DNA of 64,000 bases from Mobula birostris (taxonomy: Eukaryota): positions 86,615,288-86,679,287 of the forward strand of contig NC_092373.1 of the NCBI RefSeq assembly GCF_030028105.1, given 5' to 3'. Position numbers: made by a program. Positions 1 to 3,000 of the stretch are shown here, one piece after another. Every line of letters begins with the position of its first letter. Within the stretch, counting starts at the first letter, position 1.

Positions 1-3000
1 AAGGAATATAGCCAACATTAGTTCTGAGTGCATGTGAAAAGCTCAACCTGGTGAAAAAGGTTTTTGTTGTGGCTTCACAGACCAAAGATGACCACACTTC
101 ACACATGAACCAGTATGCAGATGTCTTTGAGGGGCTCAGAAGCTGACCTGATTCAACTTGCAAAACTTGTAACAGCATCCATGAGAGCTCCAGAGAGTTT
201 ATGCCAGAGAAACACAAGAAGTCCATCTTCCGTAGACATCGGTACCAGCTACACCGGCATGACAATCAGGATGCCAGTGCTAAACAGAGCGATCATGATG
301 AAGCTGTTGCCAGTCATGCACCTTTGGTTCAAAATCTGTCCCTCATCGACCTCCAGTTAAAGACTAGAAATCAAAAATGTCTCCGTGATCCTCTCTGAAG
401 TTGAAGAGGAAAATAAAAAGGAAGATGGGGAGACCACACAGACCCCAAGGTCAGAATAACAACAACAGTTCAACATAAACCAACAGGAGGAGTTGCTATC
501 TATGATATGCAGTCAAGAAAAGGAGCTTTGTTGATTGAGACAGGATCAAGTGGAACTTGTGCAAAGACTCACTGATCACATGGATGAGGTCCAGGGCTCG
601 ATTATGAGGCAAGTGGAGTGAATTATGGTTACCAAGCAAGAACAAGGACAGATATAAACAGACAGGATCTTGGCAGATGGATGTGAAAGAAGTGAACATG
701 TTGATCAGAGTTCTCAAAAAGACACTAATATTATGGCAGTACATCTGTGGACACAAATAGCAGACCAAAAAGGATCATCAAACCACCTTAGAGACTGATT
801 GAGATTTGTGAGTGAATAAAGAACTGTATTTGCTCATCACGGTTGAAGTTAATGTAAATATCTGCATTGCAAATCTCATTACAATTGAAGTTAATGTCAG
901 CAACGTTTGTTGGAAAGCATTATTGATTCTTGCAGGTTTATGAGGGCATAGTATTGTGTTTGCTTTCTTTAAGGAGGAAGATATGAACGCACATAATAAA
1001 GAATTTCTGTTCCCAGCATCCAATGTTTGCTCTTCACCCCGGAACCAGAAGTGACATTGGTGAAGTGATCTCACATGCTCGGGTTGGGCTGAAACCATGA
1101 GCTGTTCGCGTGAGATTGTGTTCAGCTACAGCCATTACCGTGAACAAATATATTAAGATAACATAACAATGCTGAATTTTAACATACTGCTGAGCAAGTA
1201 GAGGCTGTGTTTTCTTCATGAAGCACTCTGGGTCTGAGTCTCGGGAAGACAATCTCTGGCCCACTAAACATGTAAGATTGAGGGGTGAGCTCACCCTGAA
1301 ATCATCTGTTTGTGTGGATGCTGTGAAATTCACTACCTTGTTATAAATAAGTACCATGAAATCACAGACAGTACACCACGTACAATTAAACGATTTGGCT
1401 TTGTGATTCTTAATTTGACTACAGGGTTAGTAAATAAAAAGCAAAAAAAAAAGAAGAGGACTCATTTTAAAGAAACAATCTAATGTGCACAAGTTGGAGC
1501 TCACGGTTTCCCTTTCGCCGATCCTCCTTCGATCTCCCAGGGCTTTGTCGAATCATGGCTCCGCTCCAGGTCTAGTCCTACGATCTCTTCTCTCTGCCAT
1601 CTTCCCCCTTTATCTCCTGCCAAATAAAAGGACTCAGCTCACCCTGTTGTCAGGCACACAACACGAAAACACGCTCCCGTCATTGGATGGTTCACATTCC
1701 AAAGCACCCGTTATCTCTAACCATAACCCAAACACTACTTCTACAGAAAGACCATTACATTAGCCGTGAAACCTTTCCCAGGGTGTGACATTTATAATTA
1801 CACTTACGTGCTGGGCCCAGGAGAGCCACACTGAATTGATAATACTGAGGAATTTAATGTTGCTGATCCTCTCCACATCTGATCCCCCAATGAGGACTAG
1901 CTCAGGAATGTACAGTTCCCCCTCCTGAGGTCAACAATCAGCTGCCACGGTAGGCCTTGCTGACATTGAGTGAGAAGTTGTTGCTGTATCACCACTCAGC
2001 CAGATTTTCAATTTCCCTCATTTATGCTGATTCATTGCCACTTTAGATTTGACCAACAACAGTGGTGTCATCAGTGAACTTAAATATGGCATTTGTGCTA
2101 TGCTTAGCCACACAGTCATAATCTTAAGGCATGTAGAACAGAGGACTAAGCACGCAGCCTTGAGGTGCACCTGTGCTGATGGAGATTGTGGAGGATATGT
2201 TGTACAGCTCTCAGAGTCAGTTTAAAATACAAATTAAAGAAACTAGCTTATAATATTAATTAAAAAAAATTAAAATAAATAGATTAAACAATCTGGGCAT
2301 TTAAGTAATCCAAATATGGTTGCCAAATCTCAATGAACATAGTGTATCCATTCCTAAGGGTATAAGTAATCTTCTCAAGGGGTATACAACTTTGCATTTC
2401 TTTATTCCAACGATCAATATGTACAAGGGAAACGGATTTCCATGTTACCGCTATGTATTTCCTGGCTACTGACAATGCAATTTTAATAAATTTGGATTTA
2501 TTTGTCAGGAGGTTAACTTTCAAAACAGCTAAGTTCCCCAGAAGAAACAATTCTGGGTCTAGAGGGAAATCCATCCACAGAATCTTTCCCAGTACCTCCC
2601 CCAGATCTATCCAAAAAGATCTCAGTTTCATACATCACACATCAAAGTTGCTGGTGAACGCAGCAGGCCAAGCAGCATCTGTAGGAAGAGGTGCAGTCGA
2701 CGTTTCAGGCCGAGACCCTTCGTCAGGACTAACTGAAGGAAGAGTGAGTAAGGGATTTGAAAGTTGGAGGAGGAGGGGGAAATCCAAAATGATAGGAGAA
2801 GACAGGAGGGGGAGGGATAGAGCCAAGAGCTGGACAGGTGATAGGTAAAAGGGGATACGAGAGGATCATGGGACAGGAGGTCCGGGAAGAAAGACAAAGG
2901 GGGGGGGACCCAAAGGATGGGCAAGAGGTATATTCAGAGGGACAGAGGGAGAAAAAGGAGAGTGAGAGAAAGAATGTGTGCATAAAAATAAGTAACAGAT

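What the first reader, a model, noticed from the sequence alone, without database searches (positions are those of the whole stretch)
130..660. EDC4 mRNA fragment fused in frame into Gypsy pol, with apparent microhomology at both junctions
Seen: the Gypsy frame (…FEGL) continues at 147 into PDSTCKTC… in the same frame. At the 3' end the host QEQ runs in frame into Gypsy-like EQGQI. There is no poly(A) or TSD around the insert. Inference: CCTG (147-150) fits both Gypsy L-P-G and EDC4 P-D, and AGAACAAG (639-646) fits both partners, the pattern expected from two template switches. Established: EDC4 is a P-body decapping scaffold, and Ty3 particle assembly is associated with P-body components. Any link between that and the capture is speculative.
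Basis: partly seen in the sequence, partly recalled or inferred. Interest (0 to 1): 0.7.

Follow-up and report, generated by a model that had tools for sequence, protein, structure and literature searches.

The report
Host EDC4 fragment inside Gypsy retrotransposon
A decayed Gypsy-type retrotransposon copy has had its polymerase genes replaced by a 547-base intron-free piece of the host EDC4 gene, a clean example of an already described way in which such elements pick up host messages.

Summary
The core of the finding is real. Window 147-693 (+) is a decayed, intron-free copy of EDC4 residues 828-1012 of 1396. An exhaustive protein search gave E 2e-10, the hit carries both EDC4 Pfam domains, and tblastn gave E 6e-44. 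On its 5' side, 12-149 is the protease-to-RT linker of a Ty3/Gypsy polyprotein (81 of 121 relatives). On its 3' side, 735-815 encodes the last 16-25 residues and the stop of the same polyproteins. About 870 residues of RT, RNase H and integrase are missing between them.

EDC4 similarity runs through 639-657 to 693, so "EQGQI" is EDC4 and that microhomology claim fails. The 5' junction is in the same frame, and its codon suits both parents, but no fusion frame is open today. No poly(A) or target-site duplication flanks the insert.

This structure matches LTR-mediated retroposition by template switching (Tan et al. 2016, PMC5131818), so it is a new member of a known kind. A second chimera, Gypsy fused to the SH3KBP1 C-terminus, lies at 46.9-47.7 kb. 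The P-body link remains speculative. Intron loss, the LTRs and nucleotide-level microhomology could not be tested.

The parts
1..149 (+). Ty3/Gypsy pol, 5' part: end of the protease and the linker before RT, cut by the start of the window. It is a broken gene, with 2 in-frame stops in the 48 visible codons.
   Evidence: P0001, 65% identity. (E 1.6e-11). (81 of 121 relatives; HSP ends at 134-149 in 76 of them). (stop count).
147..693 (+). EDC4-derived fragment in sense orientation, colinear with EDC4 residues 828-1012 of 1396 and leaving no room for an intron (547 nt for 185 residues). It is decayed: 3 reading frames are used, and the longest HSP holds 5 in-frame stops.
   Evidence: E 2e-10. 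(P0002 has Ge1_WD40 and EDC4_C). (3 HSPs, outer bounds 147-693, E 5.9e-44). (identity counts).
694..734 (+). Unassigned 41 nt between the last EDC4 similarity and the first Gypsy-tail similarity. It could be diverged EDC4, the variable part of the Gypsy pol tail, or filler added at the switch.
   Evidence: No HSP from P0002 or from the 121 Gypsy proteins covers it.
735..815 (+). Ty3/Gypsy pol, 3' part: the last 16-25 residues of the polyprotein and its stop codon. It holds 1 in-frame stop in 24 codons, and the terminal stop lies one codon later than in the relatives.
   Evidence: 10 of 121 relatives, E 4e-4 to 0.024, all ending at the protein C-terminus. (for 19 of 120 C-terminal 30-mers the best hit in the whole 64 kb is here; best E 9e-6)..
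816..1455 (+). Presumed non-coding 3' end of the element: 3' UTR, a candidate polypurine tract at 971-981, and possibly the 3' LTR ending before the A-rich run at 1437-1455. None of this is verified.
   Evidence: Read directly from the sequence. No second copy exists in the window to define an LTR. No protein family was found.

Best explanation
This is an LTR-mediated retrocopy. While a Ty3/Gypsy element of the 'K02A2.6-like' fish lineage was being reverse-transcribed inside its particle, the reverse transcriptase copied the 3' end of the element's RNA. It then switched onto a co-packaged EDC4 mRNA and copied about 550 nt of it (codons 828-1012). It switched back onto Gypsy RNA just after the protease region.

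The integrated product keeps gag-protease on the left and the extreme pol C-terminus plus the 3' non-coding end on the right. It has lost RT, RNase H and integrase, so it could move further only with proteins supplied by intact relatives. It has since decayed and encodes nothing.

Shown: the identities of the three parts, their order, strand and colinearity, the missing roughly 870 residues, the absence of poly(A) and TSD at the insert, and a shared codon at the 5' junction. Inferred: the RNA origin (intron loss), the template switches themselves, and the presence of LTRs.
For: EDC4 identity. The P0002 C-terminus also matches PDB 2vxg, named CG6181-PA.

Gypsy on both sides, from the same relatives: 6 of the 10 best 5' matches (P0004, P0005, P0009, P0010, P0011, P0027) are among the 10 proteins that match the tail.

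Replacement rather than insertion: a median of 869 residues (range 846-917; 53 relatives) lies between the junction motif and the last 24 residues. No RT, RNase H or integrase was found by Pfam: 0 of 7 stretches and 0 of 30 reached a curated cut-off. tblastn found none either.

The mRNA piece is truncated at both ends (residues 828-1012 of 1396). It has no poly(A) and no flanking direct repeat.

The codon at 147-149 fits both parents. The chance of 4 or more shared nt at a random junction is 0.016.

This is the structure described by Tan et al. 2016 (PMC5131818, sections read): an internal ORF portion replaced, truncation at both ends, no L1 hallmarks, microsimilarity with a median of 6 bp, and 2-26 bp of filler at some junctions.

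A second chimera of this general kind lies in the same window.
Against: Intron loss is not shown. The EDC4 gene of this species could not be reached, so a single large exon captured at DNA level is not excluded.

No LTR was identified. The 5' end lies outside the window, and the 3' LTR is only a guess.

The microhomology rests on protein comparison, for one junction only. The other junction cannot be placed within 41 nt.

The tail match is short (16-25 residues; per-query E 4e-4 to 0.024 in 3 kb). It is, however, the best hit in the whole window for 19 of 120 tails.

Only one copy is visible, so there is no evidence that the chimera ever moved as a unit.
Confidence: 0.6

Rival explanations
1. 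The event happened at DNA level in an already integrated Gypsy copy. A double-strand break deleted RT-RNase H-integrase, and repair filled the gap with a piece of EDC4 cDNA or gene by microhomology-mediated end joining or filler capture.
For: This gives the same end product: a deletion of about 870 codons, an insert without poly(A) or TSD, a possible short overlap at one junction, and 41 unassigned nt that could be filler. Only one copy is seen.
Against: The sense orientation, the shared frame at the 5' junction and the colinear return to the same element are all expected from template switching. Under random filler capture each would be a coincidence. A second Gypsy-host chimera in the same 64 kb suggests a recurrent element-linked process.
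Confidence: 0.15
2. LINE machinery made it. Either a LINE-borne EDC4 processed pseudogene landed in a Gypsy copy and both sides were later trimmed, or a LINE reverse transcriptase started on polyadenylated Gypsy RNA and switched templates to EDC4 mRNA and back.
For: LINE-type RT fragments abound nearby (RVT_1 at 5252-5788 and 5928-6221, minus strand). An A-rich run at 1437-1455 follows the presumed Gypsy 3' end and could be a tail for the second variant.
Against: The EDC4 piece is internal (residues 828-1012 of 1396). It lacks the mRNA 3' end and poly(A) that LINE-made retrocopies keep. No direct repeat brackets the insert. The A-run is only 10 uninterrupted A, and the only AATAAA near it directly abuts the A-rich stretch.
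Confidence: 0.12
3. It is an assembly artefact: reads from a Gypsy copy and from an EDC4 retrocopy or transcript were joined wrongly.
For: The region is repeat-rich, and the window has a masked or gap stretch elsewhere.
Against: Two separate mis-joins would have to return to the same element, on the same strand and in colinear order. All three parts are comparably decayed, as expected for one old locus. No N lies within 47 kb of the site.
Confidence: 0.05

Closest known systems
LTR-mediated retrocopies (Tan et al. 2016, Genome Res 26:1663, PMC5131818; abstract and sections 5-6 read)
   Same: A partial mRNA copy sits inside a discontinuous LTR element and replaces part of its internal ORFs. The mRNA is truncated at both ends. 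There is no poly(A), TSD or L1 hallmark at the insert. Short shared bases or a few filler bases mark the fusion points. The insert is in sense orientation and can be in frame. The paper reports the kind in zebrafish (5 of 7 informative retrocopies) and other animals.
   Different: This copy is old and decayed, so nucleotide-level microsimilarity, LTRs and transcription cannot be shown. The parent gene is EDC4, which has 0 occurrences in the 2 supplementary files that could be searched. File 1 was not searchable.
Gene capture by retroviruses and plant LTR retrotransposons (oncogene transduction; maize Bs1).
   Same: Host RNA is packaged with the element's RNA and recombined into it by reverse-transcriptase template switching, giving a defective element that depends on helpers.
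   Different: Those cases were recognised through function or repeated copies. Here there is one dead copy with no sign of selection or spread.
LINE-made processed pseudogenes and LINE template-switch chimeras (L1 hallmarks as listed in Tan et al.; the chimeras themselves are recalled)
   Same: An intron-free copy of part of a host mRNA.
   Different: Those keep the mRNA 3' end and a poly(A) tail and are bracketed by target-site duplications. All three features are absent here.

Membership tests
LTR-mediated retrocopy (Tan et al. 2016) | Retrocopy flanked on both sides by sequence of one LTR element, with part of the element's internal ORFs replaced rather than merely interrupted | tested here: met
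   5' part at 12-149 and 3' tail at 735-815 come from the same relatives. A median of 869 residues is missing between them. No RT, RNase H or integrase was found.
LTR-mediated retrocopy (Tan et al. 2016) | Absence of L1 hallmarks (poly(A) tail, target-site duplication) at the insert, with the mRNA truncated at both ends | tested here: met
   No A-run of 8 or more before 1443. No bracketing direct repeat. EDC4 residues 828-1012 of 1396 only.
LTR-mediated retrocopy (Tan et al. 2016) | Microsimilarity between mRNA and element at the switch points | tested here: inconclusive
5' junction: one codon plus one base is compatible with both parents, at protein level only. 3' junction: cannot be placed within 41 nt.
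LTR-mediated retrocopy (Tan et al. 2016) | Loss of the parental gene's introns (RNA origin) | not testable with these tools
   185 residues map to 547 contiguous nt, so no intron is present. The exon structure of this species' EDC4 could not be fetched. That vertebrate EDC4 has many short exons is recalled, not tested.
LTR-mediated retrocopy (Tan et al. 2016) | 5' and 3' LTRs at the ends of the chimeric unit | not testable with these tools
   The 5' end lies outside the window. No repeat of 816-1455 occurs in the window that would define an LTR.
Ty3/Gypsy (Metaviridae-like) LTR retrotransposon | Polyprotein with protease, RT, RNase H and integrase in that order | tested here: not met
   The relatives carry this domain set (precomputed Pfam accessions), and the order is read from their sequences. 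This copy keeps only the protease end and the pol tail. It is a defective derivative of the family, not an autonomous member.
EDC4 / Ge-1 | Ge1_WD40 propeller and EDC4_C helical domain | tested here: not met
   The fragment corresponds to residues 828-1012, between the two domains of P0002 (117-440 and 1264-1384). It gives no Pfam hit of its own. It is a pseudogene fragment, not an EDC4 gene.
LINE-made processed pseudogene | mRNA 3' end with poly(A) tail, and flanking target-site duplication | tested here: not met

The most novel reading that the evidence does not exclude
Capture may not be a one-off. Gypsy lineages in this genome may repeatedly exchange everything downstream of their protease for host mRNA, giving gag-protease-host fusions. 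Two such chimeras, with EDC4 and SH3KBP1, lie 47 kb apart, and both junctions fall within about 100 codons after the protease. The choice of EDC4, whose protein scaffolds P-bodies, may reflect particle assembly among P-body-resident messages. Alternatively, there may have been a transient advantage for an element whose Gag-fusion carried part of EDC4.
Probability: 0.08. Interest if true: 0.65.

Novelty: new member of a known kind. Interest (0 to 1): 0.35.

Why it matters
The finding adds a well-delimited vertebrate example to a mechanism that has few described cases outside flies: retroposition and exon shuffling driven by LTR elements rather than LINEs. Two Gypsy-host chimeras in a single 64-kb window hint that the process may be frequent in this genome. 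If so, a genome-wide census could test which host messages get packaged and whether they are P-body-associated. The locus itself is dead and has no evident function.

Tried and rejected
1. Word-index protein search of 147-395 among longer proteins: 26 candidates, none at E<=0.01. It missed EDC4, which the exhaustive search then found.

2. PDB sequence search of 147-395: 0 hits at E<=10. Atlas look-alikes: best score 0.79, below the level that counts.

3. Pfam on the insert's stop-free pieces, on both strands of 1-2845: nothing reached a curated cut-off, and there was no EDC4, RT or integrase family. That is 0 of 7 stretches and 0 of 30. Of the 44 stretches listed, 2 had already been scanned, 30 were sent, and the 12 that start at 2516 or later were not scanned.

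4. I first suspected that Gypsy RT simply continued past 147 in decayed form. This was rejected. P0001 residues 448-561 gave no colinear HSP. Only 4 of 81 5' HSPs run past 149, and they do so at 22-27% identity with gaps (3/11, 6/24, 15/60, 12/55), against 40/58 for EDC4 in the same stretch.

5. P0003, the second hit (E 1.2e-4, 27 residues, a DUF4755 protein), was taken as a chance or low-complexity match.

6. Rfam on 1-5000: 0 matches.

7. Search for a second copy or an LTR within the window: only short matches. Region 1308-1395 matches 14519-14592, and 1237-1325 matches 62950-63041. These remain unexplained.

8. A read-through query of the frame-1 part with X at its stops was not made, because it would have meant typing a changed sequence. 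The pieces were scanned separately instead.

9. Names and species for P0001 and P0002 could not be obtained.

Full report
**What is in the sequence.** The window opens inside a coding region read in frame 3. One database protein matched them at E<=0.01, out of 6 candidates. This is P0001 (561 aa), a gag-protease-start-of-RT protein with an aspartyl-protease Pfam domain, at 65% identity over 95% of the query. Searching with P0001 brought 226 longer relatives at E<=1e-10, of which 120 were listed. Most are about 1300 aa and carry precomputed protease, RVT_1, RT-RNase H, integrase zinc-finger and rve domains. Where a source names them, the names are 'K02A2.6-like', 'Gypsy retrotransposon integrase-like' or 'Pol polyprotein from transposon 17.6'. 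The element is therefore a Ty3/Gypsy-type retrotransposon. Its closest named relatives are from fishes, and I do not take the window for human.

**The Gypsy 5' part.** Of the 121 proteins, 81 give an HSP on the window's first 150 bases at E<=0.05. These HSPs end at 134-149 in 76 cases and at 80 in one. Four run on to 182-329, but only at 22-27% identity with gaps, which is noise.

**The insert is EDC4.** The word-index search of 147-395 found nothing, as did PDB, Pfam and the Atlas. The exhaustive phmmer search of 1.84 billion representatives found two proteins at E<=0.001. The best is P0002 (1396 aa): E 2e-10, 70% identity, query residues 1-59 against protein residues 828-884. P0002 has Ge1_WD40 (residues 117-440, E 3e-145) and EDC4_C (residues 1264-1384, E 4.5e-48). 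Its C-terminus matches PDB 2vxg, 'CG6181-PA'; that this is Drosophila Ge-1 is my recollection.

tblastn of P0002 against the whole window gave 5 HSPs at E<=1. Three lie together, with outer bounds 147-693, and cover residues 828-883, 886-902 and 891-1012 in three different frames. Identity is 61-71% and the joint E is 5.9e-44. The other two are weak (E 0.19 and 0.77) and lie far away. Thus 185 residues map to 547 contiguous bases, so there is no intron. The piece lies between the two Pfam domains and lacks both ends of the message. The three pieces were each compared in their own frame.

**The 3' side.** That is wrong. Within 622-657, 7 of 12 codons are identical to P0002, and beyond 646, 9 of 16 are. 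EDC4 similarity ends at 693.

Gypsy does resume, but further on. Ten of the 121 polyproteins give a frame-3 HSP at 735/738-809 that ends exactly at the protein's last residue (E 4e-4 to 0.024 in a 3-kb search). Only 2 unrelated HSPs appeared at that threshold. When the C-terminal 30 residues of all 120 long relatives were searched against the whole 64 kb, 118 gave a best HSP at E<=50. For 19 of them that best HSP lay at 735-809, with E down to 9e-6. The best scores elsewhere reached 29.3 bits, presumably at other Gypsy copies in the window. Six of the ten best 5' relatives are among the ten that match the tail. The pol stop codon follows at 813-815. The 41 bases at 694-734 match neither parent.

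**What is missing, and the state of decay.** In 53 relatives longer than 1250 aa that carry the junction motif, a median of 869 residues (range 846-917) separates that motif from the last 24 residues. This is the whole of RT, RNase H and integrase. None of it is found by Pfam or tblastn in the first 3 kb.

Break counts are as follows. The Gypsy 5' part has 2 in-frame stops in 48 codons, and the Gypsy tail has 1 in 24. The EDC4 part uses three frames, which means at least two frameshifts, and its longest HSP holds 5 in-frame stops. No fusion protein is encoded today.

**Junctions.** At 147 the Gypsy frame and the first EDC4 frame are the same. Codon 147-149 (P) fits both parents. P0002 reads P-D at residues 828-829, and the residues before that show no likeness to the window. 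However, it is inferred from proteins of other species and is not measured. The 3' junction cannot be placed. No A-run of 8 or more lies before 1443, and none of the direct repeats shown (20 of 35 families) brackets the insert.

**Surroundings.** Downstream of the pol stop, 816-1455 has no protein family, no Rfam match and no second copy in the window. A purine run at 971-981 and an A-rich run at 1437-1455 are candidates for a polypurine tract and the element's end, but nothing more. Beyond that lie LINE-type fragments: 1791-2175 matches 56796-57183 in inverse orientation, and RVT_1 occurs at 5252-6221 on the minus strand. There is also a GIY-YIG-bearing repeat. The window is a patchwork of retroelements.

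**Mechanism.** The architecture has five features: one element on both sides, its internal ORFs replaced, an mRNA piece truncated at both ends, sense orientation, and no poly(A) or TSD. This is what Tan et al. 2016 describe as LTR-mediated retroposition by microsimilarity-dependent template switching. Their cases show a median microsimilarity of 6 bp, 2-26 bp of de novo sequence at some junctions, and products that behave as non-autonomous elements. I read the abstract and sections 5 and 6 in full. I hold this explanation at 0.6.

The rivals are:
- DNA-level repair with filler capture in an integrated copy (0.15).
- LINE-mediated origin (0.12), disfavoured because the piece is internal to the message and has no tail.
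- Mis-assembly (0.05).

**A second chimera.** At 46943 to about 47300-47408 (+), 112 of the 121 proteins match gag-end to protease and the linker, with P0013 closest. The same ORF (47130-47690) ends in a tail whose last 57 residues match the C-terminal coiled coil of SH3KBP1 (PDB 2n64 and 5abs, E 4.5e-13). It runs to a stop codon and into apparent 3' UTR, up to the N run at 47905-48038, which I left as it is. No Gypsy tail was found up to 51 kb. This second case raises the prior for an element-linked capture process, but it was only partly followed up.

**Known or new.** The kind is known, so this is a new member. Neither EDC4 nor SH3KBP1 appears in the two searchable supplementary files of Tan et al.; file 1 could not be searched. 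A search for EDC4 with 'retrocopy' or 'LTR retrotransposon' found 60 papers holding two of the three terms. None of the 10 listed holds EDC4, and the other 50 were not seen.

For the P-body background, I saw only the listing and abstract start of PMC4589538, which reports P-body components associating with Ty3 Gag3. A causal link to this capture is untested.

**Unchecked.**
- The parental EDC4 gene, an intact copy of this Gypsy family at DNA level, the sequence upstream of the window and the genome-wide copy number therefore remain unseen.
- The listing of cluster members was off, so the species and names of P0001 and P0002 are unknown.

Noticed in passing
window 46943-47690 (+): A second Gypsy-host chimera. 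A gag-end/protease/linker region of a related Gypsy (closest relative P0013; 112 of 121 relatives match) runs in one ORF into the C-terminal coiled coil of SH3KBP1. The SH3KBP1 match covers 47511-47681, against PDB 2n64 and 5abs at E 4.5e-13. A stop codon follows at 47688-47690, then apparent 3' UTR. The junction lies somewhere in about 47300-47510. No Gypsy tail was found downstream to 51 kb.
   Followed up: partly
window 47905-48038: A run of 134 N directly downstream of the SH3KBP1-like 3' UTR.
   Followed up: no
window 40000-45000 (-) and 45344-46525 (+): A long Gypsy copy of another lineage, with about 26-34% identity to the 120 relatives, spans gag to integrase on the minus strand. It abuts an integrase fragment on the plus strand that carries Integrase_H2C2 (E 2.9e-15)..
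   Followed up: partly
window 1308-1395, 14519-14592, 62950-63041: Short shared motifs lie downstream of the Gypsy pol stop. An exact 18-nt core recurs at 14519-14536, a colinear 37-nt match at 84% follows it, and a third, weaker copy lies at 62950-63041. Their meaning is unknown; they could be part of a common repeat or an LTR-like module.
   Followed up: partly
window 2640-4255: Two copies, in inverse orientation, of a repeat with a GIY-YIG-like ORF (3386-3709; Pfam GIY-YIG E 1.8e-4, just below the cut-off). They sit inside a LINE-type element on the minus strand whose RT lies at 5252-6221. The pattern looks like a nested Penelope-like insertion, but that label is recalled, not tested.
   Followed up: no
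window 833-897: A 23-nt motif is repeated at a spacing of 42 nt (87% identity) in the presumed 3' untranslated part of the element.
   Followed up: no
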